Source of the DNA: Candidatus Colivivens caballi
Lineage (GTDB): Bacteria > Bacteroidota > Bacteroidia > Bacteroidales > Bacteroidaceae
DNA: 64,000 bases
Reading direction: 5' to 3'
Assembly: GCA_018065565.1 (NCBI GenBank)
Contig: JAGHSZ010000015.1
Coordinates: 1,162-65,161 of the forward strand
Shown here: positions 24 to 9,728 of the stretch, piece by piece
How the letters are laid out: every line of letters begins with the position of its first letter
How positions within the stretch are numbered: position 1 is the first letter of the stretch
The notes under the pieces: model-generated
Told to the model about the DNA's origin: nothing
The model's input: only the letters and a program-made list of their open reading frames with translations
The model's database searches: none
Program-made: the position numbers and the translations under genes

Positions 24-1523
24 TTGATTTATGTCCAAACCAATGATACCTCAATGAAAGGATATAACAAATACTTAGATAGAATAGTAAATACTAATAA
101 ATTTAAAGCTAGTGGACAGGGATATGCTGGCGATGCTATTCAAAATCAGATTTCACAATGGGAACGTTACGGTGATTATGTAATCTGTATCAACATCCAG
201 TGTAGCTATGGCAATTATAATACAAAAAAATGTTATCTAAATTGGAAAGATACAGGTATTAATATTTTTGCAAAATGGAGTGGCAATACCATCGAATCTC
301 TTGCCATTGGATATTGTTTTTGGTGGGAAAAAAATTATTATAACAAATATAAAGAAATCTATAACAAGACATTATCTGACTTGGGGCTTTATGAGGATAG
401 AATAACAGAAAGCCTTGAACAATTTTTTAATTATTTTCTTAACAAAATACATGAATATGACAACTCATGTGGAGAATACTATTTGGAAGAAAATAAATAT
501 GAGCAAAAACAAAAACAAATCAAAATTATGGAAGAGAACAAACAATATATTAACCTGTTGACGAATAATCATAACATTATTCTTACTGGTGCCCCGGGCA
601 CAGGTAAAACATATCTTGCAAAGCAGATTGCTGCTCAAATGATTTTGGGTTGTGAGTATGACGAGAAAAACGAAGATCATAAGAAGAAAATGGACGAACA
701 ATTTGATTTCGTGCAGTTCCATCCTTCATACGACTATACCGATTTCATCGAAGGACTACGACCTTGGCAGGATGAGCATTGGCAGGATGAGCATATTGGT
801 TTCAAGCGAGAGGACGGTGTTTTCATGGCATTCTGCCGAAAAGCACTGAAAGCCTACAATGCTGTTGAGAACAAAGAAGATGCCCCGAAGTACGTCTTCG
901 TCATTGACGAGATAAATAGAGGGGAACTTTCCAAGATTTTTGGCGAACTGTTCTTTAGTATTGACCCTGGATACAGAGGTTCTAAAGGAAAGGTCAAAAC
1001 ACAATATGTTAACCTATGGAAGTCGGATTTGGATATGTTTGACGGAGGTAAAAGTTTCTTTATTCCCGAGAATGTATATATTATAGGAACGATGAATGAC
1101 ATTGATCGCAGCGTTGAAAGCATGGACTTTGCTATGCGTCGTCGTTTCGCATTCAAGGAAGTCTTTGCCTCCGAAAGATTTTCTATGATTGAAGAGAATT
1201 CAAAATTGTCAAATTATGCTGCCATGATTAAAAAGCGAATGGAAAATCTCAACGACTGCATTCTCACGATACAAGGTTTAAGCACTGCTTATCAAATAGG
1301 AGCATCTTATTTTCTCAAGCTTGAAAATTATCTGGACAACGGTCAATTAACTGATAGTTCATGGGAATCATTATGGGACAATCATCTTAAAGGATTATTG
1401 TTTGAGTATCTAAGAGGGCTTCCAAATGCAGACTCTGACTTGAAGAAATTAGAAGATGCTTATAATCTTGAACCGAAGGAAGCCAACGAGGAAATAATCA
1501 GTGATAACAACAATAATGAATAA
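24..1523 (+). CDS. mcrB: McrB-like AAA+ GTPase subunit of a type IV (modification-dependent) restriction system; possibly 5'-truncated by the window edge
   Basis: 499-aa ORF with Walker A LTGAPGTGKTY, McrB-type Walker B FVIDEINRGELSKIFGELF, and MNDIDRS and RRRFAF motifs. The frame stays open upstream of the TTG at 24 to the window edge. Confidence 0.85.
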   Translation: MIYVQTNDTSMKGYNKYLDRIVNTNKFKASGQGYAGDAIQNQISQWERYGDYVICINIQCSYGNYNTKKCYLNWKDTGINIFAKWSGNTIESLAIGYCFWWEKNYYNKYKEIYNKTLSDLGLYEDRITESLEQFFNYFLNKIHEYDNSCGEYYLEENKYEQKQKQIKIMEENKQYINLLTNNHNIILTGAPGTGKTYLAKQIAAQMILGCEYDEKNEDHKKKMDEQFDFVQFHPSYDYTDFIEGLRPWQDEHWQDEHIGFKREDGVFMAFCRKALKAYNAVENKEDAPKYVFVIDEINRGELSKIFGELFFSIDPGYRGSKGKVKTQYVNLWKSDLDMFDGGKSFFIPENVYIIGTMNDIDRSVESMDFAMRRRFAFKEVFASERFSMIEENSKLSNYAAMIKKRMENLNDCILTIQGLSTAYQIGASYFLKLENYLDNGQLTDSSWESLWDNHLKGLLFEYLRGLPNADSDLKKLEDAYNLEPKEANEEIISDNNNNE

Positions 1524-2877
1524 AATTATTCACCTTACGGATAATTATTACGAAGGGAAAACAATACAGCCAGAGAACCTTTCCGATGTGATACGTATCG
1601 CAAATATCGGGAAGTTACGCAACGCTCCTGAATTGTTGGTGTTCCCCCATTCTTTTTCTGAACTTGAAGATGGAATAGAAGACCTATCAATTCTTTCATT
1701 AAAAGACTGCGAATACGAGAATGGAATATGCATGTCAGCAAAAGCTTGCACAGGCAATTTAATGGGCTTCGTAGGAATTAATGAAACATCAATTAGTATT
1801 CACTCGCGCTTCACCCACGGAAAGCACAATGGTATTGTTGATGCAGATGGAAAGGACTATTTCCTATATTACATGCTCCAGAAAGTATTCTCTATTAATG
1901 TCTTCAACTTAGAACACACATCTAATCAAGAAGACAAGATACTTGACTTCCTACTCTACTTATTTCCATACATGCTAAACAAAGCCCTTCAGCAAGGGAT
2001 ATACAAAGAATACCAATGTCACCATTATGATAATCCTCGTGTAAAAGGGACAATAGAGGTCGGTAAGTACATTCGAAATGATATTCCTTTCCGAGGCAAT
2101 ATCAGTTACCGTATGCGTGAATTTTGTTTTGATAATCCAATGACTCAACTCATTCGGCATACTATAGAACACATTAAACACAATCCAATTGGAGCATCAA
2201 TTTTGTGTTCAGGTCAAGAGACAAGAGATAATGTAAGTAAAATCATTCAAGTTACATCTTCTTTCGATAAAAGGGATTTGGTAAAAATTATAAATGCAAA
2301 CAGAAAACCTAAAATACACCCTTATTTTACAGCTTACAAAGATCTTCAACTGCTATGCATGCGTATTCTTTGCCATGATTCTCTAAAATATGGAGAAAAC
2401 AAGGACAAGGTGTATGGCATTCTGTTTGAAGGTGCGTGGTTATGGGAAGAATATCTTTATACAATTCTAAAGGAACATGGTTTCAAACATCCAAAAAACA
2501 AAGCCAGCAAAGGTGGCATAAGGATGTTTGAGAAAACTAATGATGAAGATTATTTTGACAACAATAGCAGACGAATGTATCCTGACTTTTGGAAGGAAAA
2601 CTATATCCTTGATGCCAAATATAAACATCTGAATGGAAAAGTCGGACGAGAGGATTTATACCAAGTAGTTAGCTACATGCATTGCATGAAAGCCGAAAAT
2701 GGAGGCTATATTTACCCAAATGAAGGGGAATATAAAACAAGTAAATATCAATTGGGAGGGTATGGTGGCTTGTTAAAAGTTATTCCGTTTGAAGTCCCAC
2801 AAGATGCTGATGAATGGGCTGTATTTATTGAAAAAATAAAACATAGTCAAGAAAAACTCATTTCGAACATAAAATGA
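1516..2877 (+). CDS. mcrC: McrC-like nuclease subunit (PD-(D/E)xK)
   Basis: The ATG at 1516 overlaps the mcrB stop (ATGAATAA); the track ORF starts at a GTG at 1501. C-terminal motif YPDF...ILDAKYK. Size and position directly after mcrB fit McrC. Confidence 0.8.
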   Translation: MNKIIHLTDNYYEGKTIQPENLSDVIRIANIGKLRNAPELLVFPHSFSELEDGIEDLSILSLKDCEYENGICMSAKACTGNLMGFVGINETSISIHSRFTHGKHNGIVDADGKDYFLYYMLQKVFSINVFNLEHTSNQEDKILDFLLYLFPYMLNKALQQGIYKEYQCHHYDNPRVKGTIEVGKYIRNDIPFRGNISYRMREFCFDNPMTQLIRHTIEHIKHNPIGASILCSGQETRDNVSKIIQVTSSFDKRDLVKIINANRKPKIHPYFTAYKDLQLLCMRILCHDSLKYGENKDKVYGILFEGAWLWEEYLYTILKEHGFKHPKNKASKGGIRMFEKTNDEDYFDNNSRRMYPDFWKENYILDAKYKHLNGKVGREDLYQVVSYMHCMKAENGGYIYPNEGEYKTSKYQLGGYGGLLKVIPFEVPQDADEWAVFIEKIKHSQEKLISNIK

Positions 2878-3386
2878 CACTGTTTATCTCTGATTCTATG
2901 CACTATTCCGAAGTCCTTGAACTTGCAATGAAAGCAAAAAAAACACTTTGGATAGGTACTGCCGACATCAAGGACTTGTATATCTCCAATGGAAAGGCCG
3001 AAAAGCCCTTCCTTGGAGTGTTGTCAGACCTGATTGGTAAGGGAGTGAATGTCCGTTTGATTCATGCGAAAGAACCAGGACAAGCATTCCGGGAAGACTT
3101 TGACAAATTCAAGCATCTGGCTATTGGATTGGAAAGAGTTCTCTGTCCTCGTGTCCATTTCAAAATCATTGTAATCGACTGCAAGACCGCATACATCGGT
3201 AGTGCCAACCTTACAGGTGCTGGGATGGGAATGAAGTCACCCAATCGAAGGAATTTTGAGGCAGGTATTCTAACTGATGATCCAGAACTTGTTGAAGCTG
3301 CGATGGAAGAGTTTGACAAAGTCTGGCGTGAAGAGATGTGCAAGAAGTGTCAGCGTAAGCAATATTGCGGAGATCCAATAAAGTGA
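2874..3386 (+). CDS. Small phospholipase D-family (single HKD) nuclease, Nuc/BfiI-like
   Basis: 170 aa with a complete HxK(x4)D(x6)GSxN motif, HFKIIVIDCKTAYIGSANLT. The ATGA overlap with the mcrC stop (2874-2877) indicates translational coupling. Cys-rich C-terminus CKKCQRKQYC. Confidence 0.85.
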   Translation: MTLFISDSMHYSEVLELAMKAKKTLWIGTADIKDLYISNGKAEKPFLGVLSDLIGKGVNVRLIHAKEPGQAFREDFDKFKHLAIGLERVLCPRVHFKIIVIDCKTAYIGSANLTGAGMGMKSPNRRNFEAGILTDDPELVEAAMEEFDKVWREEMCKKCQRKQYCGDPIK

Positions 3387-3410
3387 TTTTTGACGAAATA
3401 TAATGATTTT

Positions 3411-3452
3411 AGCGACCTATGTCTTGTATGTGCACAGGTCGCTTTTAATTTT
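3411..3452 (+). terminator. Rho-independent terminator after the mcrBC-PLD operon
   Basis: AGCGACCT (3411-3418) pairs with AGGTCGCT (3436-3443), followed by TTTTAATTTT. Confidence 0.65.
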
Positions 3453-3481
3453 GTTGCCGAAATCATAATAAAGATTGGATT

Positions 3482-5170
3482 ATGGCACGAATAAATGAAG
3501 AAAAGGGGATTGTCCCATGCGTTGAGAAAGAGAACGCAACAATGGCTGATGATACGATTATTGCTCATATTGAGCAGATAGTAAACATCGCCGTAAGTGA
3601 GAAATTAGGTGATGATGTTTTTCAAAAAGCCAGTGAGAGTTTGGAGTTTGTAGGAGATAAACTTGGCATAACTCATCGGCAGGCATTGCTCCTGTCACTG
3701 CTTGTGGAACTAAGCGACAGCCGAAGAATAGATACCAGTGACATTGCGAAGCTTACGAACTGTCGAAGGGTGCGTGTATTGTCACTGCTTTCAGACGACA
3801 AAGTGCTCATCGAGAAAGGGTTGGTTGTCAGAAAAAAGAACAATGGCAATATTGAGTATTGTGTCCCGAATGATGTTGTAAATGCCATCAAGAACAATGA
3901 ACCATACGAGTTTCATCGGAAGCAACTCAATATAGATGATTTCTTTGCAGCCGTTGATGCAGTCTGTGAAAATGCAGAGGAAAACAATGATGGATTCCAA
4001 GAAAATGTTGACGATTTGGTAAACACCAACATTCATCTTGACTTTTGTAAGACATTCAGAAAGTATTTTGGAGAGAATGACTCTGACGGTGCTTTATTTA
4101 TGATATTTGCTCATCGACTGATAAACAAAGACGACGATTGCATTGGCGAACATGATTGGGAGGACTATTTTTGTAAAGGAGTTGTGAGAAGATACCGAAG
4201 TAGATTCACCAGACACCAATCATCGTTGTTTGACAGACATCTGCTTGAAGAAGCAGGTTCGGATGGCATTCGTGACAATTATTACCATCGCATCACCAAT
4301 CAGGCGAAAGAGGAATTCTTTGCGGGTATGGAAGGACTGAAACATGAAACAAAGAAACTGAAAAATACAAGGGAGCACACTTCGATTGCTGAAAAGACAT
4401 TGTATTATAATGACAATGAGGGGCGACAGATGGTGCAGCTTACTTCTTTATTGACGGCACAGAATTTCAGGGATGTCCAGCAGCGTCTGGCTGACTGCGG
4501 AATGCGAAAGGGATTTGCTTGTCTTTTCTATGGGACACCTGGTACTGGCAAGACAGAATCAGTCTATCAGATAGCAAGAAAGACAGAGCGCGACTTGATT
4601 GTCATTGATGTGGCAAACATCAAGAGTTGCTGGGTGGGAGAGAGCGAGAAGAACATAACCGAAACTTTCTCTAAATACCGACAGTGTGTCGAGACATGCA
4701 GGGCAGAGGGACGAAATGAACCAATACTGCTGTTCAACGAGGCAGATGCCATACTTGGCATACGCATGGAAAATGCTCAGAGGGCAGTGGATAAATCGGA
4801 GAATTCTATCCAGAACATTATCCTTCAAGGCATGGAAAACCTGGATGGCATCATGATAGCGACAACCAACCTTACTACCAATCTTGACAAGGCGTTTGAG
4901 CGTCGTTTTATCTACAAGATTGAGTTCTGCAAACCAAACATAGATGTAAAGTGTGCAATCTGGAAATCGATGATGCCGAACCTGACCGAAGAAATGGCAA
5001 TACAATTAGCAGAACAGTATGATTTCAGTGGTGGTCAGATTGAAAATGTAGCAAGGAAACAAGCTGTTGAGCATGTGTTGACTGGCAAAGAATCAACTGC
5101 TGAACAACTCAATGACTACTGCCGGCAAGAAATGCTCAACAATAAGAAATGTAACAAGATAGGTTTTTGA
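3482..5170 (+). CDS. AAA+ ATPase (classic-clade, SpoVK/FtsH-like module) with an N-terminal winged-helix-like region
   Basis: Walker A LFYGTPGTGKT, Walker B-like ILLFNEADAIL (Asn in place of the usual Asp), sensor-1 region IATTN, and Arg-finger region FERRF. The N-terminal part (ITHRQALLLSLLVEL...VLIEKGLVVRKK) looks like a wHTH. The start could instead be the ATG at 3542. Confidence 0.85.
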   Translation: MARINEEKGIVPCVEKENATMADDTIIAHIEQIVNIAVSEKLGDDVFQKASESLEFVGDKLGITHRQALLLSLLVELSDSRRIDTSDIAKLTNCRRVRVLSLLSDDKVLIEKGLVVRKKNNGNIEYCVPNDVVNAIKNNEPYEFHRKQLNIDDFFAAVDAVCENAEENNDGFQENVDDLVNTNIHLDFCKTFRKYFGENDSDGALFMIFAHRLINKDDDCIGEHDWEDYFCKGVVRRYRSRFTRHQSSLFDRHLLEEAGSDGIRDNYYHRITNQAKEEFFAGMEGLKHETKKLKNTREHTSIAEKTLYYNDNEGRQMVQLTSLLTAQNFRDVQQRLADCGMRKGFACLFYGTPGTGKTESVYQIARKTERDLIVIDVANIKSCWVGESEKNITETFSKYRQCVETCRAEGRNEPILLFNEADAILGIRMENAQRAVDKSENSIQNIILQGMENLDGIMIATTNLTTNLDKAFERRFIYKIEFCKPNIDVKCAIWKSMMPNLTEEMAIQLAEQYDFSGGQIENVARKQAVEHVLTGKESTAEQLNDYCRQEMLNNKKCNKIGF

Positions 5171-5212: not shown

Positions 5213-6151
5213 TCACTTGCCGAGGTACTCTTTCAACTGACTGGCAAAATGCCTTGTGAAGACCTCTGCACCGTTGATATTGATGTGATAGTTGTCGAAG
5301 GCATATTCCTTGTTGTGGGTGAACCCTTCAAGGTGGCTGTCGTCGATGAATGTGATGCCGAGTTCCTGGCACAGCTGACTTGTTTCCCTTGTGTAGAAAT
5401 TGTCCTGATTGTATTCGTCGTACATCGGTGAAATGACGATGAACAGTTTGCAGCCAGCATGCTTGATGCGACGGACTGTTGCCTTGAACTCACGGACAAT
5501 GTCGGGGTCGAGTTCGCCATCCGTGATTTTGAAATCCTTTGGTGTCAGTGTTATGCGACGGTTGACAGGTCGGCCGCCAAATCCCAGTGTACTGCTCTGT
5601 GCTGCCGTTTGTGATGCAAAGACAGAACGGAGGATTCTGCCTGCCGTGGCATTGTACCGGTAGGTGTTGAGGTGCATGATGTATTTGAACGAAGAACCCT
5701 CGTGCCTGTCCAGCACTTGTCGTATGTATGAATTCGTCCAATAGTAAGGATATATCAGACTGAGGTTCTCTTTGGGAGGGATGCCCAGCTGGCGTTCCTT
5801 GAAGTCCCATACGATGACCTGTGGGGTGTAACGGTCGAGAATACAGTTGATGAGCGTGTTGCAGTAGTAGAATTCCTGACCGTCGCCACCGCAGTTGTAC
5901 ACACTCAGCCTTGGGAGCGAGTCCATGAGGATGCGGCTGTCGTATGCTGTCTCGGCTCGTGACGAACCGATGATGAGCATGTCGGCATTGACACGGTGCA
6001 GGGCAAAATATGACTTTGCCACTCGTTCACCATCGGGGGGCATGTGGCTGATTATCGTATCGAAGAACTTCCCAATGCCGAAGTCCAGCAGCCAGAAGGC
6101 TATGATTGTCGCAGTGATTGTCACTGCGATTTTTTGTATTTCTCTTTTCAT
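5213..6151 (-). CDS. DltD-like / SGNH-like acyltransfer partner protein of the adjacent MBOAT
   Basis: N-terminal TM anchor, IIGSSRA (block I-like GSS) and a C-terminal DNYHININGAE (DxxH block). It lies 13 nt downstream of the MBOAT gene. Confidence 0.55.
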   Translation of the reverse strand: MKREIQKIAVTITATIIAFWLLDFGIGKFFDTIISHMPPDGERVAKSYFALHRVNADMLIIGSSRAETAYDSRILMDSLPRLSVYNCGGDGQEFYYCNTLINCILDRYTPQVIVWDFKERQLGIPPKENLSLIYPYYWTNSYIRQVLDRHEGSSFKYIMHLNTYRYNATAGRILRSVFASQTAAQSSTLGFGGRPVNRRITLTPKDFKITDGELDPDIVREFKATVRRIKHAGCKLFIVISPMYDEYNQDNFYTRETSQLCQELGITFIDDSHLEGFTHNKEYAFDNYHININGAEVFTRHFASQLKEYLGK

Positions 6152-6163
6152 GCTTGCTTGAAT

Positions 6164-7582
6164 TTAGAACTGGAAATAAATGAACTGACTGCTGTCGAGA
6201 ACTCCAAACAGGAGGATGTATGTGATGAGCACTGCTGTGGTAAGAACCGACACCACCTGATTGTCGGCATTTAGCATCTTCCAGCTTGGATGAAATTCAT
6301 CTGCAAAGTCTTTGGCAAACAGTATGGCAAGTGAAAGACATCCCAACAGCATTGGCATAGCCTGAATGAACGGAGCCCCTGGTTGTGTGAGAATTTTTGT
6401 GACGATTGTGAATCCGTCTTGTATTGTTTCTGCTCGGAAAAATATCCATGCAATGCTAACTAACAAGAACACAATCATAATACTGATGAACCGTGGCATA
6501 CTGTTGGTTGTGCTGGCGCCTCCTGTAAGTTTCCTTTTCACTGCTTCGACAATCTGATACAATCCATGAAGTGCTCCCCAGAACACAAATGTCCATGCCG
6601 CACCATGCCAAAGACCACTGACAAGGAACACAATCATGAGGTTGAGCAGATAATGCCAGTACTTCACACGGTTGCCACCAAGTGGAATGTAAAGGTAGTC
6701 GCCAAACCATGATGACAGCCCGATGTGCCACCTTTTCCAGAATTCTTTGATTGTAGTGGAAAAATAAGGGCGTAGGAAGTTGTCTGGCAAGCGAAAGCCC
6801 ATCATTCTGGCACAACCCAGTGCCACAAGTGAGTAGCCTGCAAAGTCGCCGTAAATCTGTATGGAATAGAAGACTGATGCAATAGCAAGTGAAACACCAT
6901 TGTGCTGCGGGATGTGGTCGAATACAGAATCGACATATGTCCCCAGGCGGTCAGCAACACAGAGTTTCATGAAATATCCCCAAAGCATCATCCTGAGTCC
7001 GGTAATGACATTGTCATATAAGATAGGATGTTGTGCTTTCAACTGTGGTATCAAATTCTTTGCTCGCTGAATTGGACCGGCAAGAATCACAGGGAAGAAT
7101 GACACAAACAATGCATAGGTAAGAAAGTTTCGTTCGGCAGGAACTGTTTTACGATAGACATCAATAATGTAGCCGGCTGACTGAAATGTGAAAAATGATA
7201 TGCCTACTGGCAATAGAACATCAAGATAGGGTACATCCCAGCGTATGCCCGCCAATGATAGCAGTGATTCCACTGAACCATTGATGAAATTATAGTATTT
7301 AAATATAAACAAAATACTGAAATTGAGAACTAAACAAACTGAGAGTGCGACTTTTTTTAGTTTCGTGTCCTCATGATATGTTTCAAGCAACCTTCCGCAA
7401 AAATAAGTGATTAGTGTTGATGCGATAAGGATTAGTGCATATGCAGGTTTGAGATTCATATAAAAATAGTAGCTGGCAATAAGGAGCCACAAATTGTTGA
7501 GGCGATTGTGATTTCTCAACAAATAGTAGATGAGGGCTACTATTGGGAAGAACACTATGAAATCGAGCGAATTGAACAGCAT
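6164..7582 (-). CDS. MBOAT-family membrane O-acyltransferase (AlgI/DltB-like)
   Basis: 472-aa polytopic protein with FWKRWHIGLSSWFGDYLYIPLGGNR and the conserved His region SGLWHGAAW. Confidence 0.9.
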   Translation of the reverse strand: MLFNSLDFIVFFPIVALIYYLLRNHNRLNNLWLLIASYYFYMNLKPAYALILIASTLITYFCGRLLETYHEDTKLKKVALSVCLVLNFSILFIFKYYNFINGSVESLLSLAGIRWDVPYLDVLLPVGISFFTFQSAGYIIDVYRKTVPAERNFLTYALFVSFFPVILAGPIQRAKNLIPQLKAQHPILYDNVITGLRMMLWGYFMKLCVADRLGTYVDSVFDHIPQHNGVSLAIASVFYSIQIYGDFAGYSLVALGCARMMGFRLPDNFLRPYFSTTIKEFWKRWHIGLSSWFGDYLYIPLGGNRVKYWHYLLNLMIVFLVSGLWHGAAWTFVFWGALHGLYQIVEAVKRKLTGGASTTNSMPRFISIMIVFLLVSIAWIFFRAETIQDGFTIVTKILTQPGAPFIQAMPMLLGCLSLAILFAKDFADEFHPSWKMLNADNQVVSVLTTAVLITYILLFGVLDSSQFIYFQF

Positions 7583-7854: not shown

Positions 7855-8017
7855 CTCAATACCATGAATTTTCTTTAAGGAATCGTCGTTTTCATTACAT
7901 ACCGATGGACTAAGCTTTATCCGCACACATTCTTGTAGAACCCTTGTTTTTATATGCATGTGTTTGCTTGAAAGTTAAATAAATTCATGATTATTTTGCT
8001 GTATCAACAAAAAAGTG

Positions 8018-8025
8018 TACCTTTG
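8018..8025 (+). promoter_or_regulatory. -7 promoter element (TACCTTTG) for the GT2-GH16 pair
   Basis: TACCTTTG lies 31 nt upstream of the ATG at 8056. Confidence 0.55.
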
Positions 8026-8055
8026 CATTTGCTTTTTGCATTTTTTATCGTAAAT

Positions 8056-8871
8056 ATGGATCAGGATTTAGTTTCAGTCATAATGCCAACATACAACTCC
8101 AGCAAGTTTCTTGCTGAGAGCATTGACTGTGTTTTGGCTCAGACCTATAAGAATTTGGAACTAATCATAACTGATGACTGCTCAACAGACGGTAAGACAC
8201 AGGAAATCATCCGTTCCTATGCCGAAAAAGATAGTCGTGTAAAAGCATATTTCTTTAAGGAGAACCAGGGGCCAGGTTGTAGCCGAAACAAGTGTATTGA
8301 AATGGCAGCTGGGCGTTACATCGCATTCTGCGACAGTGATGACCGATGGCTGAAAGATAAACTTGAACGGCAGATAAAGTTCCTGAACGAAAAGGACGGT
8401 TGCCTCACATTTTCATCATATTGGGAGTGTAATGAGCAGAACGAAAAAATTGGCATAGTAGTTGCTCCTGAGAAACTGACACTGACAGACTTGAAGCATG
8501 ATAATAAGATTGGCTGCTTGACTGCGCTTTATGACACAACAAAGTTTGGTAAGTATTATATGCCAACAATCCGCAAGCGCCAGGACTGGGCTCTTTTCCT
8601 GACAATCATGAAAGACTGCAAGGTGGCATATGCCATTACCGAACCTCTCGCATATTATCGGTTGACACCAGGTTCTGTTTCTCGCAGCAAATTCAAGTTG
8701 GTGAAATACAATGCCAAAGTATATCAGCAGGTCTTTGGCTATTCTACATTAACCTCTTATGCGTATCTGTTTTTCATGTTTATGCCGTCATACACATATA
8801 AGGTCGTTTCGAATAAAATGAAATTCAGGGAAATCGCATCATCGTTAACGAAAAAGTTTAAGCAAGTTTAA
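8056..8871 (+). CDS. Family 2 glycosyltransferase
   Basis: VSVIMPTYNSSKFLAESIDCVLAQTY...LIITDDCSTD and the DxD motif FCDSDD. The ATG at 8056 is preferred over the longer track ORF (7987). Confidence 0.9.
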   Translation: MDQDLVSVIMPTYNSSKFLAESIDCVLAQTYKNLELIITDDCSTDGKTQEIIRSYAEKDSRVKAYFFKENQGPGCSRNKCIEMAAGRYIAFCDSDDRWLKDKLERQIKFLNEKDGCLTFSSYWECNEQNEKIGIVVAPEKLTLTDLKHDNKIGCLTALYDTTKFGKYYMPTIRKRQDWALFLTIMKDCKVAYAITEPLAYYRLTPGSVSRSKFKLVKYNAKVYQQVFGYSTLTSYAYLFFMFMPSYTYKVVSNKMKFREIASSLTKKFKQV

Positions 8872-9728
8872 TGAATTTGTGCAGATATCAGCATATTAAT
8901 CGCTTTGCGATTGCTGCAGCAGTTTTGTTTGTATTGCTGCTTAGTTGTCTTGTTCTTTTTGCTTATGACAATATAAGCAATCAGTTACCAGACTCTCCGA
9001 AACAGAAATATAGGTTAATATTTAGGGAAGACTTTAATGGCGACACACTCGACCTAAAACATTGGCGCAAGATTCCAAGAAATGTCAAGGTTGCATGGAG
9101 CGCATGTCTTTCTGACCATTCCTCGTTATATGATATTTCTGATGGCCGTTTAAGACTTTATGCTCGTGAGAATACTGGCGTGAATAGTGGGGACACTGCT
9201 AAATATCTGCTTGGTGGGGTAGAGACTAAGAATATGGTTGGGTTTACCTATGGAAAGGTGGAAGTCCGTGCCCGCATGACGGGAGCACAGGGTGTTGTAT
9301 CAGCCATTTGGCTGGTTGCGACTAAGCCTAAACCTTATCCCGACTATATGGAACTTGACATCCTTGAACATATAAATGAAAGAATGACTGCGGATCAGAC
9401 TGTTCATAATAATTACATTGATAAATTGGGATTTAAGGACAAACCACTATATCAGGTAAAGCCTCAGGTCAATTATTTGAAATATAATACATATGCTGTG
9501 GAAGTGCTGCCTGACAGAGTAATATTCAGCATCAATGGTCGTAACACTTTGGTTTATCCTCGCATTGAAACACAGCACGCGGGTCAATTTCCGTTTGGTT
9601 CGGGAGAATTGTTCCTAAGACTTAATATGGAGGCAGGGTACAATAAGTGGCTGCGTGATGTTGATTTGAGCAAGTTCCCCGTGTATATGGACATTGACTG
9701 GGTCAAATTTTATGATGTTGCCCTTTAA
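8871..9728 (+). CDS. Membrane-anchored glycoside hydrolase family 16 (beta-glucanase-like)
   Basis: N-terminal TM helix (FAIAAAVLFVLLLSCLVLFAY) and the GH16 catalytic motif ExDxxE as MELDILEH. The start overlaps the GT2 stop (TAATG). Confidence 0.8.
   Translation: MNLCRYQHINRFAIAAAVLFVLLLSCLVLFAYDNISNQLPDSPKQKYRLIFREDFNGDTLDLKHWRKIPRNVKVAWSACLSDHSSLYDISDGRLRLYARENTGVNSGDTAKYLLGGVETKNMVGFTYGKVEVRARMTGAQGVVSAIWLVATKPKPYPDYMELDILEHINERMTADQTVHNNYIDKLGFKDKPLYQVKPQVNYLKYNTYAVEVLPDRVIFSINGRNTLVYPRIETQHAGQFPFGSGELFLRLNMEAGYNKWLRDVDLSKFPVYMDIDWVKFYDVAL

What the first reader, a model, noticed from the sequence alone, without database searches (positions are those of the whole stretch)
24..3386. McrB-McrC plus a translationally coupled single-HKD (PLD) nuclease: a three-gene type IV-like module
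Seen: three co-directional ORFs have overlapping stop/start signals (ATGAATAA at 1516-1523, ATGA at 2874-2877). They are followed by a hairpin+T-run terminator (3411-3452), so they form one operon. ORF1 has McrB GTPase motifs (GAPGTGKTY, VIDEINRGELSKIFGELF, MNDIDRS, RRRF). ORF2 keeps a PD-(D/E)xK motif (YPDF..ILDAKYK). ORF3 (170 aa) has one complete HKD motif (HFKIIVIDCKTAYIGSANLT) and a Cys-rich tail. Established: canonical McrBC is a two-protein machine in which McrC is the only nuclease. Single-HKD proteins of the Nuc/BfiI type dimerise to make a DNA-cleaving site, and PLD nucleases recur as effectors of NTP-driven restriction and defence systems. Inference: this is a McrBC derivative with a second, mechanistically different nuclease in the same operon, either a dual-nuclease effector or a back-up arm. 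I cannot tell from the sequence whether this architecture is already catalogued.
Basis: partly seen in the sequence, partly recalled or inferred. Interest (0 to 1): 0.7.

Follow-up and report, generated by a model that had tools for sequence, protein, structure and literature searches.

The report
McrBC cassette upstream of shared PLD nuclease
An ordinary McrBC restriction enzyme lies directly in front of a small, very conserved PLD-type nuclease gene, but in hundreds of Bacteroidales species that same nuclease gene follows dozens of unrelated defence genes, so this is a neighbour arrangement inside a variable defence island and not a dedicated three-protein machine.

Summary
Three co-directional ORFs with ATGAATAA and ATGA overlaps encode a McrB-type AAA+ GTPase, a McrC with an intact PD-(D/E)xK site, and a 170-aa single-HKD PLD protein with a Nuc/NucT/Zucchini-like predicted fold.

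The interpretation, a McrBC derivative with its own second nuclease, is not supported by comparison.
- The PLD gene has relatives in at least 561 species genomes; the 79 best loci, which I inspected, are all Bacteroidales (64-91% aa identity, dN/dS about 0.1).
- In 85 loci its upstream gene is co-directional in 84% (median gap 9 nt) but belongs to 42 different protein families. These include GmrSD pairs, a MoxR-VWA-metallopeptidase trio, RtcB, Fic and unknowns.
- McrC is the upstream gene in only 4.
- PLD copies 90-98% identical usually sit behind different cargo.
- McrBC relatives at 80%, 60% and 58% identity lack the PLD gene.
- PLD also occurs alone, with its own Bacteroides-type promoter motif.

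About half of the loci share the frame WYL regulator, DEDDh exonuclease, variable cargo, PLD. Several relatives have exactly WYL-exonuclease-McrB-McrC-PLD, which probably continues left of the window edge. PLD fragments separate cassettes in related loci.

Best reading: a canonical type IV McrBC cassette co-transcribed with an autonomous nuclease gene that anchors the island. The frame itself appears undescribed.

The parts
24..1523 (+). McrB-like AAA+ GTPase. The N-terminal ~170 aa form an unassigned putative DNA-recognition domain. The start is TTG 24 or, more likely, ATG 51.
   Evidence: AAA_5 3.9e-14; NCBIfam McrB 1.1e-39 over residues 175-447. Walker A GAPGTGKT, Walker B VIDEINRG, NxxD signature MNDID and RRRF are all present. 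The N-terminal domain has no Pfam match and is unrelated to that of the closest McrB relatives.
1516..2877 (+). McrC, with a DUF2357-type N-terminal part and a PD-(D/E)xK nuclease. Its start overlaps the McrB stop.
   Evidence: PF10117 9.2e-54 over residues 79-401. P356-D357...D366-A-K368 are invariant in 14 homologues of 52-80% identity.
2874..3386 (+). A 170-aa single-HKD PLD-family nuclease with four conserved Cys (C91, C156, C159, C165). Its start overlaps the McrC stop (ATGA). It is the conserved 'anchor' gene of the island.
   Evidence: PLDc_2 9.6e-16. H95-x-K97-x4-D102-x6-G109-S110-x-N112 are invariant in 19 homologues. AF2 pLDDT 75.5. Foldseek: Zucchini 4ggk E 2.6e-8, NucT 6ehi and Nuc 1byr, TM 0.55-0.65. 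dN/dS about 0.1. Neighbourhood survey.
3411..3453 (+). Hairpin (8-bp stem, 17-nt loop) plus a T-rich run. It is a possible terminator of the McrB-McrC-PLD unit.
   Evidence: Fold of 3387-3481: -19.6 kcal/mol, z -1.94. Not called by the consensus terminator scan.
3446..3453 (+). TAATTTTG, which matches the Bacteroides -7 promoter consensus TAnnTTTG, 28 nt upstream of ORF4.
   Evidence: Read from the sequence. The same motif precedes uncoupled PLD copies in 19 of 36 related loci. Its function was not tested.
3482..5170 (+). A 562-aa classic-clade AAA+ ATPase, IetA-like, with no protease partner. It is a recurrent but not fixed member of the same islands.
   Evidence: PF00004 1.6e-20; PADLOC IetA 7.5e-26; NCBIfam IteA 87 bits against a 510-bit cut-off. 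Homologues occur in 17 of 87 PLD loci at varying positions, and downstream of PLD in 8 of 54 loci with at least 6 kb of downstream sequence.

Best explanation
The window holds the right-hand part of a variable Bacteroidales defence island. McrB-McrC is a canonical, self-sufficient type IV restriction enzyme. An N-terminal reader domain on a GTP-driven McrB ring recruits the McrC PD-(D/E)xK nuclease to cut modified DNA (mechanism inferred from family membership). Here McrBC is one interchangeable cargo cassette. The 170-aa PLD gene behind it is not part of McrBC. It is an autonomous, strongly conserved single-HKD nuclease gene, presumably a homodimer forming one active site as in Nuc, NucT and Zucchini (inferred). 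It closes the transcription unit in front of which many different defence cassettes are found. In about half of related loci the unit starts with a WYL/WCX regulator and a DEDDh 3'-5' exonuclease, so the full frame is WYL, exonuclease, [cargo], PLD. By analogy with L010 and L102-L104, the window most likely continues leftwards into the exonuclease and WYL genes. The ATGA overlap means PLD is co-translated with whatever lies upstream. That gives co-expression, and perhaps loose cooperation such as further degradation of cut DNA, but no specific complex. Cargo turns over by recombination in and around the conserved flank genes.
For: (1) The PLD family is large and compact. At least 561 species genomes hold a relative, and the 79 best loci are all Bacteroidales at 64-91% identity. 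Mean column identity is 81% and dN/dS is 0.05-0.17. (2) Upstream neighbours vary. Of 89 full-length copies with an upstream neighbour called (88), 75 have a co-directional upstream gene, with median gap 9 nt and 19 overlapping, drawn from 42 protein clusters; McrC accounts for 4. Annotated cargo includes several GmrSD types, MoxR-VWA-YgjP peptidase, a KaiC-like ATPase plus an unknown protein, RtcB, RhuM-Fic, PDC-S01 and FtsZ-like proteins. (3) Only 23 of 89 PLD copies share the upstream family with their nearest PLD relative. Pairs at 92-98% identity differ in cargo. Window-to-L004 DNA homology (90.5%) spans exactly 2874-3379. (4) PLD is autonomous. Thirteen copies have an opposite-strand upstream gene. 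The TAnnTTTG motif lies within 70 nt upstream in 19 of 36 uncoupled copies against 6 of 53 coupled ones. (5) McrBC is autonomous. L092 (McrC 80% identical) is a plain McrB-McrC pair between a GH31 gene and cysS. L094 and L088 also lack PLD. (6) The frame recurs. The exonuclease is upstream and co-directional in 25 of 53 loci with at least 8 kb of upstream sequence, with 0-6 genes in between, all co-directional in 27 of 31. Seven loci are 'empty', with PLD directly after the exonuclease (six of them also with WYL upstream). L010 and L102-L104 are WYL-exonuclease-McrB-McrC-PLD with gaps of 6 nt or less. (7) Recombination occurs in PLD. Extra copies and 5' or 3' fragments of PLD lie between cassettes. 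(8) The upstream junction is tighter than for other co-directional pairs in the same loci (median 14 against 49 nt, p = 0.003), while the downstream junction is looser (median 95 nt).
Against: McrC-PLD with the same 4-nt overlap persists in one lineage while McrC diverges strongly (dN 0.33 against 0.07 for PLD), so some selective benefit of the pairing is not excluded. The consistently tight, co-directional coupling to cargo is more than a passive hotspot flank would need. My gene calls are simple longest-ORF calls and the clustering is BLAST-based. The loci were sampled from the PLD side, with only about 10 independent loci from the McrC or exonuclease side. No expression, interaction or activity data exist. 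The part of the island left of the window is inferred, not seen.
Confidence: 0.65

Rival explanations
1. Generic helper nuclease. PLD is a shared, non-specific second-line nuclease that cooperates functionally with whichever defence cassette is upstream, for example by degrading nicked or cleaved invader nucleic acid together with the DEDDh exonuclease. Cassettes are then selected to sit in its operon.
For: Upstream genes are 84% co-directional, with a median gap of 9 nt and 19 start/stop overlaps spread over unrelated cargo families. The junction is tighter than background. PLD nucleases are accessory parts of other defence systems; the best PADLOC and NCBIfam matches are DrmC, MkoB and DpdK, all below cut-offs. 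Seven 'empty' loci with PLD directly after the exonuclease, six of them with WYL upstream, suggest a nuclease pair under one regulator.
Against: PLD also occurs alone between unrelated or opposite-strand genes with its own promoter motif. Cargo families such as McrBC and GmrSD work without it elsewhere (and established knowledge of McrBC and GmrSD). No experimental data exist.
Confidence: 0.2
2. One reading: a dedicated three-component type IV system in which McrBC recruits or activates the PLD dimer as a second, mechanistically distinct nuclease.
For: Translational coupling in the window. The same McrC-PLD overlap occurs in L009, L010, L102-L104 and L107. McrC relatives at 58% identity are also followed by PLD, with a 6-nt gap.
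Against: McrC is the neighbour in only 4 of 89 PLD copies, and 42 families take its place. PLD is 92% identical behind non-McrBC cargo, with homology bounded by the ORF. McrBC at 80%, 60% and 58% identity lacks PLD. L101 keeps WYL-exonuclease-McrBC while its PLD has decayed to a 24-codon remnant. The variable PLD N-terminus does not track cargo, since the window's is closest to L004's.
Confidence: 0.06
3. Housekeeping nuclease next to a hotspot. PLD and the DEDDh exonuclease are core nucleic-acid repair or turnover genes with no role in defence, and the DNA between them merely tolerates insertions.
For: Strong purifying selection and wide distribution. The exonuclease is found alone between purH and clpB. 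PLD sits in non-defence surroundings in L007, L032 and L036.
Against: The chromosomal position of the block is not conserved; its neighbours are trmE, secDF, polA or an OMP gene in different loci. The gene is present in only a fraction of Bacteroidales. Multiple copies and decayed fragments occur within one locus. There is an almost constant association with defence-type genes and a WYL regulator.
Confidence: 0.09

Closest known systems
McrBC of E. coli K-12 (type IV, modification-dependent, GTP-driven restriction)
   Same: An adjacent mcrB-mcrC pair with overlapping stop and start. AAA+ GTPase with Walker A/B, the NxxD signature and RRRF. McrC with PF10117 and an invariant PD...D-x-K.
   Different: The N-terminal reader domain of McrB is unrelated and unassigned. 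Both proteins fall below the NCBIfam equivalog cut-offs (136 against 637 bits and 40 against 338 bits). The pair is embedded in a WYL/exonuclease/PLD-framed island.
Nuc (pKM101/Salmonella), NucT (H. pylori) and Zucchini/MitoPLD: small single-HKD nucleases that dimerise
   Same: Size (about 150-200 aa), a single complete HKD motif and the predicted fold (Foldseek probability 1.0, TM 0.55-0.65). Zucchini also carries a Zn-binding element; here four conserved Cys are present.
   Different: Sequence identity is only 14-19%. No signal peptide is evident by eye, whereas Nuc and NucT are exported. The C-terminal CxxC...C tail is specific to this family. Substrate is unknown.
DISARM DrmC, Dpd DpdK and Mokosh MkoB (PLD nucleases as accessory parts of defence systems)
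   Same: These are the best profile matches in defence libraries (DrmC 7.7e-10, MkoB 5.3e-9; NCBIfam DrmC_I 3.7e-12). Each is an accessory nuclease at the end of a defence operon.
   Different: Scores are far below the family cut-offs (46 against 133 bits; DpdK 17 against 100). No DrmA/B/D/E/M, Dpd or MkoA genes occur in the window or in related loci.
CoCoNuT type III-C (McrBC-type systems with PLD domains; Bell et al. 2024, PMC11090510)
   Same: It combines a McrB/McrC-type pair with PLD nuclease domains.
   Different: There, two PLD domains are fused to a wHTH protein (CnuE) next to a UPF1-like helicase, and CnuB has an NxD motif and coiled coils. Here the motif is NxxD, with no helicase, no coiled-coil protein, and a free-standing 170-aa PLD.
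Defence-island hotspots flanked by conserved genes (P2/P4 hotspots, PMC9122126) and WYL (BrxR/CapW-type) regulated defence operons
   Same: Conserved frame genes with rapidly exchanged defence cargo between them. A WYL/WCX regulator heads the unit in about half of the loci.
   Different: The frame genes here are themselves nucleases. The cargo lies inside one tightly packed co-directional unit. Fragments of the 3' frame gene separate the cassettes. No mobile-element backbone or integrase was seen.

Membership tests
McrBC type IV restriction system | McrB: AAA+ GTPase domain with Walker A, Walker B, the Nx(xx)D signature and arginine fingers | tested here: met
   AAA_5 53 bits (cut-off 22). NCBIfam McrB aligned over residues 175-447. 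GAPGTGKT, VIDEINRG, MNDID (NxxD) and RRRF are read in the translation and conserved in relatives.
McrBC type IV restriction system | McrC: McrBC/DUF2357 region plus a PD-(D/E)xK catalytic triad | tested here: met
   PF10117 183 bits (cut-off 23.9). D357, D366 and K368 are invariant in 14 homologues.
McrBC type IV restriction system | N-terminal modified-base reader domain on McrB | tested here: inconclusive
   A ~170-aa N-terminal region is present but has no Pfam match at E up to 10. It differs from that of close relatives, as expected for a swappable specificity domain.
McrBC type IV restriction system | GTP-dependent cleavage of modified DNA | not testable with these tools
   Needs biochemistry or phage challenge.
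Nuc/NucT/Zucchini-type single-HKD PLD nucleases | One complete HxK(x)4D(x)6GSxN motif in a protein of about 150-200 aa | tested here: met
   H95, K97, D102, G109, S110 and N112 are invariant in 19 homologues. PLDc_2 58 bits (cut-off 27).
Nuc/NucT/Zucchini-type single-HKD PLD nucleases | PLD fold resembling the solved nucleases | tested here: met
   Foldseek E 2.6e-8 to 1.3e-7 and TM 0.55-0.65 to 4ggk, 6ehi and 1byr. The model pLDDT is 75.5, with the tail and the 112-125 loop at low confidence.
Nuc/NucT/Zucchini-type single-HKD PLD nucleases | Homodimer forming one active site; nuclease activity | not testable with these tools
   No multimer prediction or assay was available.
DISARM (DrmC) | Passes the DrmC family model and sits next to DrmA/DrmB (helicase plus DUF1998) and a methyltransferase | tested here: not met
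   NCBIfam DISARM_DrmC_I 46 bits against a cut-off of 133. No such neighbours in the window or in related loci.
CoCoNuT (type III-C) | CnuB with an NxD motif, coiled coils, a CnuH helicase and a CnuE with tandem PLD domains | tested here: not met
   The motif is NxxD (MNDID). No helicase or coiled-coil gene is adjacent. PLD is a free 170-aa protein (definition from PMC11090510).
IetAS (for ORF4) | IetA ATPase paired with the IetS S8 protease | tested here: not met
   IetA-like match 89 bits in PADLOC, but NCBIfam IteA 87 bits against 510. The next genes are on the opposite strand and no protease is present.
WYL-exonuclease-cargo-PLD island frame (defined here) | A WYL/WCX regulator and a DEDDh exonuclease co-directional upstream of the cargo | not testable with these tools
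   The window starts at the McrB gene, and there is no WYL or exonuclease homologue elsewhere in the 64 kb. Both are present in the homologous loci L010 and L102-L104.

The most novel reading that the evidence does not exclude
WYL-DEDDh exonuclease-[cargo]-PLD is a previously undescribed cassette platform of Bacteroidales. It would be a regulated operon into which defence genes are captured and exchanged, with the PLD gene serving as the recombination target. The PLD enzyme might itself take part in the exchange, since it uses phosphohistidine chemistry, as do the nicking-joining PLD enzyme of poxviruses and the transesterifying BfiI. This would be loosely analogous to an integron without a tyrosine recombinase.
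Probability: 0.1. Interest if true: 0.8.

Novelty: new variant of a known kind. Interest (0 to 1): 0.45.

Why it matters
The result bears on three things.
- **Annotation.** Tight operon packing, even start/stop overlap, does not by itself define a defence 'system'. A McrBC+PLD three-gene type should not be entered in catalogues on this evidence.
- **Discovery.** The conserved PLD gene, together with the exonuclease and WYL genes, is a cheap and very specific marker for a defence-gene hotspot in gut and rumen Bacteroidales. In 85 loci it already points to 42 upstream families. Many have no assigned function, such as a 356-aa protein paired with a KaiC-like ATPase, a MoxR-VWA-YgjP trio, and RtcB.
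- **Mechanism.** A frame made of two nucleases and a WYL regulator, with fragments of the anchor gene between cassettes, raises a testable question about how defence cargo is exchanged and co-regulated in a phylum where such hotspots have hardly been described.

Tried and rejected
- **DISARM, Dpd and Mokosh membership of the PLD.** The profile matches are real but far below the cut-offs, and the partner genes are absent.
- **CoCoNuT III-C.** The motif class and the architecture are wrong.
- **Site-specific att site inside PLD.** Fragment break points differ (aa 37, 89, 92, 132 and 106-139), so a single site is unlikely.
- **DNA-level constraint on PLD.** dS is 0.4-1.1, so conservation is at the protein level.
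- **Phage origin.** There is no PLD match in 50,697 phage records, and only one in plasmids (a 317-kb Segatella replicon, in a similar island).
- **Fixed right-hand anchor.** The AAA ATPase lies downstream of PLD in only 8 of 54 loci.
- **McrB N-terminal domain.** No Pfam assignment was obtained.
- **McrC-side scan of metagenome contigs.** It returned only 4 loci, of which 1 is fully informative.
- **Literature.** Searches for McrBC plus phospholipase D, Bacteroidales hotspot/WYL, DUF6140 and PLD/WYL/DEDDh found no description of this arrangement. The library lacks most subscription journals, so this is absence of evidence only.
- **Recovering the sequence left of the window.** The exact proteins are not in the indexed collection (best PLD match 93%).


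Full report
**1. The observation.**
The three ORFs exist as described.
- ORF1 runs 24..1523. The first ATG is at 51, and there is no in-frame stop between base 3 and 24, so the true start is uncertain by a few codons.
- ORF2 runs 1516..2877 and ORF3 runs 2874..3386.
- The overlaps are ATGAATAA at 1516-1523 and ATGA at 2874-2877.

Profile searches place the three proteins as follows.
- ORF1 is a McrB-type AAA+ GTPase: AAA_5 3.9e-14, and NCBIfam McrB 1.1e-39 over residues 175-447.
- ORF2 is a McrC: PF10117 9.2e-54.
- ORF3 is a PLD-like protein: PLDc_2 9.6e-16.

The McrB signature is of the NxxD class (MNDID). McrC D357, D366 and K368 are invariant among 14 homologues of 52-80% identity. In ORF3 the HxK-x4-D-x6-GSxN motif and four cysteines (C91, C156, C159, C165) are conserved in 19 homologues.

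The AlphaFold2 model of ORF3 (pLDDT 75.5) matches the small dimeric PLD nucleases best. These are Zucchini/MitoPLD, NucT and Nuc, at E about 1e-7 to 1e-8 and TM 0.55-0.65.

The hairpin after ORF3 is real but weak as a terminator. It has a 17-nt loop, was not called, and folds with z = -1.94. Its T-run contains TAATTTTG (3446-3453), a Bacteroides-type -7 promoter motif placed 28 nt before ORF4.

**2. Where the evidence led: the PLD gene is not specific to McrBC.**
The first neighbourhood look-ups already showed other genes in front of PLD.
- A copy 83% identical follows a GmrSD pair.
- A copy 75% identical follows three unknown ORFs.
- A copy 93% identical follows a GmrSD pair plus a DUF2441-like gene.
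- Others follow RhuM/Fic or a DNA-alkylation-repair gene.

The 79 best loci are all Bacteroidales: Muribaculaceae, Prevotellaceae, Bacteroidaceae, Salinivirgaceae, Paludibacteraceae, Alistipes and Coprobacter. Their PLD is 64-91% identical to the window's.

I called ORFs in all loci and clustered the products.
- There are 89 full-length PLD copies in 85 loci.
- The upstream gene is co-directional in 75 of 88, with a median gap of 9 nt. Sixty gaps are 50 nt or less and 19 are overlaps.
- These upstream genes fall into 42 clusters.
- McrC is the neighbour in four loci: the window, L009, L010 and L039.

Annotated cargo includes several distinct GmrSD types, a MoxR-VWA-YgjP metallopeptidase trio, and a KaiC/RecA-like ATPase with an unknown 356-aa protein. 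It also includes RtcB, RhuM-Fic, the PADLOC candidate PDC-S01 and FtsZ-like proteins.

**3. PLD and cargo have separate histories.**
Only 23 of 89 PLD copies share the upstream family with their nearest PLD relative. Pairs at 92-98% identity differ in cargo.

At the DNA level the window matches L004 at 90.5% over exactly 2874-3379. That is the PLD ORF alone, with unrelated sequence on both sides.

PLD evolves under strong purifying selection, with dN/dS 0.05-0.17 and dS 0.4-1.1. Between the window and L009 or L010, PLD dN is 0.07-0.08 while McrC dN is 0.33.

PLD can stand alone. Thirteen copies have an opposite-strand upstream gene. The Bacteroides -7 motif TAnnTTTG lies within 70 nt upstream in 19 of 36 uncoupled copies, against 6 of 53 coupled ones.

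From the McrC side the picture is mixed.
- The relative at 83% identity has PLD with the same 4-nt overlap (L107).
- The relative at 80% is a plain McrB-McrC pair between a glycoside hydrolase and cysS (L092).
- Relatives at 60% and 58% lack PLD (L094, L088).
- Another at 58% has DUF6140-McrB-McrC-PLD.

So both modules occur with and without each other.

**4. The frame.**
In 25 of 53 loci with at least 8 kb of upstream sequence, a DEDDh (RNase_T family) exonuclease lies upstream on the same strand, usually preceded by a WYL/WCX regulator.
- Between the exonuclease and PLD there are 0-6 genes, all co-directional in 27 of 31 cases.
- Seven loci are 'empty', with PLD directly after the exonuclease; six of them also have WYL upstream.
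- L010 and L102-L104 read WYL-exonuclease-McrB-McrC-PLD with gaps of 6 nt or less. In L102-L104 an AAA ATPase like the window's ORF4 follows a few genes later.

This is the window's architecture, so the window most probably begins just after the exonuclease gene. An in-frame TAG at bases 4-6 is compatible with this but proves nothing.

The frame is not obligatory.
- L101 has WYL-exonuclease-McrBC with only a 24-codon PLD remnant.
- The exonuclease also occurs alone between purH and clpB.

The junction in front of PLD is tighter than other co-directional junctions in the same loci (median 14 against 49 nt, p = 0.003). The junction behind it is looser (median 95 nt). PLD therefore tends to close a transcription unit.

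**5. Recombination in the anchor.**
Several loci carry two full PLD copies separated by cargo, with 58-96% identity between the copies. Many carry PLD fragments.
- In L095-L100, a 5' fragment (aa 1-37) lies between a GmrSD cassette and DUF6140-McrB-McrC-PLD. It also shows up as a 116-nt direct repeat.
- 5' fragments occur in L022 and L031.
- 3' fragments lie after cargo in L004, L044, L054, L058 (two), L086 and L101.

The break points differ, and no integrase was seen. This looks like homologous or illegitimate recombination within the conserved gene followed by decay, not a site-specific system.

**6. Mechanism.**
- *Shown:* gene content, motifs, packing, distribution and independence of the modules.
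- *Inferred from family knowledge:* McrB hexamers read a modified base through the N-terminal domain, which is unassigned here. They hydrolyse GTP and activate McrC to cut DNA. The PLD protein dimerises to form one metal-independent active site that cuts nucleic acid through a phosphohistidine intermediate.
- *Inferred from context:* the cargo is co-transcribed with PLD, probably from a WYL-controlled promoter. PLD acts on its own or as a generic second nuclease with the DEDDh exonuclease.

I put 0.65 on autonomous modules in a framed island, 0.2 on a generic helper nuclease, 0.06 on the dedicated three-component model and 0.09 on pure housekeeping.

**7. Comparison with known systems.**
- McrB and McrC meet the tested defining features of McrBC.
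- The PLD protein meets the motif and fold features of Nuc/NucT/Zucchini-type nucleases, but it is a separate, uncharacterised family.
- It fails the DrmC and DpdK family cut-offs, and their partner genes are absent.
- CoCoNuT III-C, the one described McrBC-type system with PLD domains, has a different motif class and architecture.
- ORF4 resembles IetA but has no IetS partner.

In function the locus resembles defence hotspots with conserved flanks and WYL-regulated defence operons. I found no paper describing a small PLD gene behind McrC or this WYL-exonuclease-PLD frame. The searchable library is incomplete.

**8. Verdict.**

The McrBC itself is an ordinary new member of a known kind. The PLD-anchored, nuclease-framed cassette island is a new variant of the defence-hotspot theme and a useful handle for finding defence genes in Bacteroidales. 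Interest is 0.45.

Noticed in passing
window 3482-5170 (+): A 562-aa AAA+ ATPase with an IetA-like C-terminal half (PADLOC 7.5e-26) and an unassigned 330-aa N-terminal half. It has no IetS protease partner. Homologues recur at varying positions in 17 of 87 PLD loci.
   Followed up: partly
window 3446-3453 (+): TAATTTTG (the Bacteroides -7 promoter consensus TAnnTTTG) lies inside the T-run of the putative terminator, 28 nt before ORF4. The hairpin region may therefore serve as both terminator and promoter.
   Followed up: partly
window 24-560 (+), McrB residues 1-170: The N-terminal domain of McrB has no Pfam match. It is unrelated to the N-terminal domains of the closest McrB relatives (L010, L039), although the GTPase domains align well. 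This looks like a swapped specificity domain of unknown target.
   Followed up: partly
L095 858-1080 and 4281-4503; also L001, L027, L035, L042: Small DUF6140 genes (about 75 aa; 92% identical direct repeat within L095) sit at the 5' end of successive cassettes, for example DUF6140-x-GmrSD and DUF6140-McrB-McrC-PLD. No paper in the library mentions DUF6140.
   Followed up: partly
L095-L100 4109-4219; L101 14085-14156; L058 11173-11308 and 13890-14078; L022 8378-8647; L031 5089-5355 and 9847-10236; L004 18971-19090: 5' and 3' fragments of the PLD gene lie between or after cargo cassettes, with differing break points. None is present in the window itself.
   Followed up: yes
L013, L026, L028, L038, L047, L080, L084: 'Empty' versions of the frame: the PLD gene directly follows the DEDDh exonuclease (gap 0-88 nt). 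Six of the seven also have a WYL regulator upstream (not L013), giving a possible minimal WYL-controlled two-nuclease operon.
   Followed up: partly
L015, L018, L019, L021, L034, L040, L043, L049, L054, L070: The commonest cargo directly upstream of PLD (10 loci) is an unannotated protein of about 355 aa, usually preceded by a KaiC/RecA-like ATPase of about 286 aa. It has no Pfam or PADLOC match and is a candidate new defence pair.
   Followed up: partly
L048, L055, L060, L071, L076, L079: A MoxR ATPase, VWA protein and YgjP-like metallopeptidase trio recurs as cargo upstream of PLD.
   Followed up: partly
L087 (Segatella hominis NZ_CP137560.1, 317-kb replicon): This is the only annotated record with the PLD gene (58% identity). 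It sits in an island with a WYL protein, AAA ATPases, a PD-(D/E)xK protein, a metallophosphoesterase and an ATP-binding protein plus S8 peptidase pair (IetAS-like).
   Followed up: partly
window 5213-7582 (-) and 7987-9728 (+): To the right of the island the genes change strand and look like polysaccharide-modification genes. Judged by eye from the translations, they are an MBOAT-like 472-aa membrane protein and glycosyltransferase-like ORFs. This marks the right border of the defence island at about 5.2 kb.
   Followed up: no
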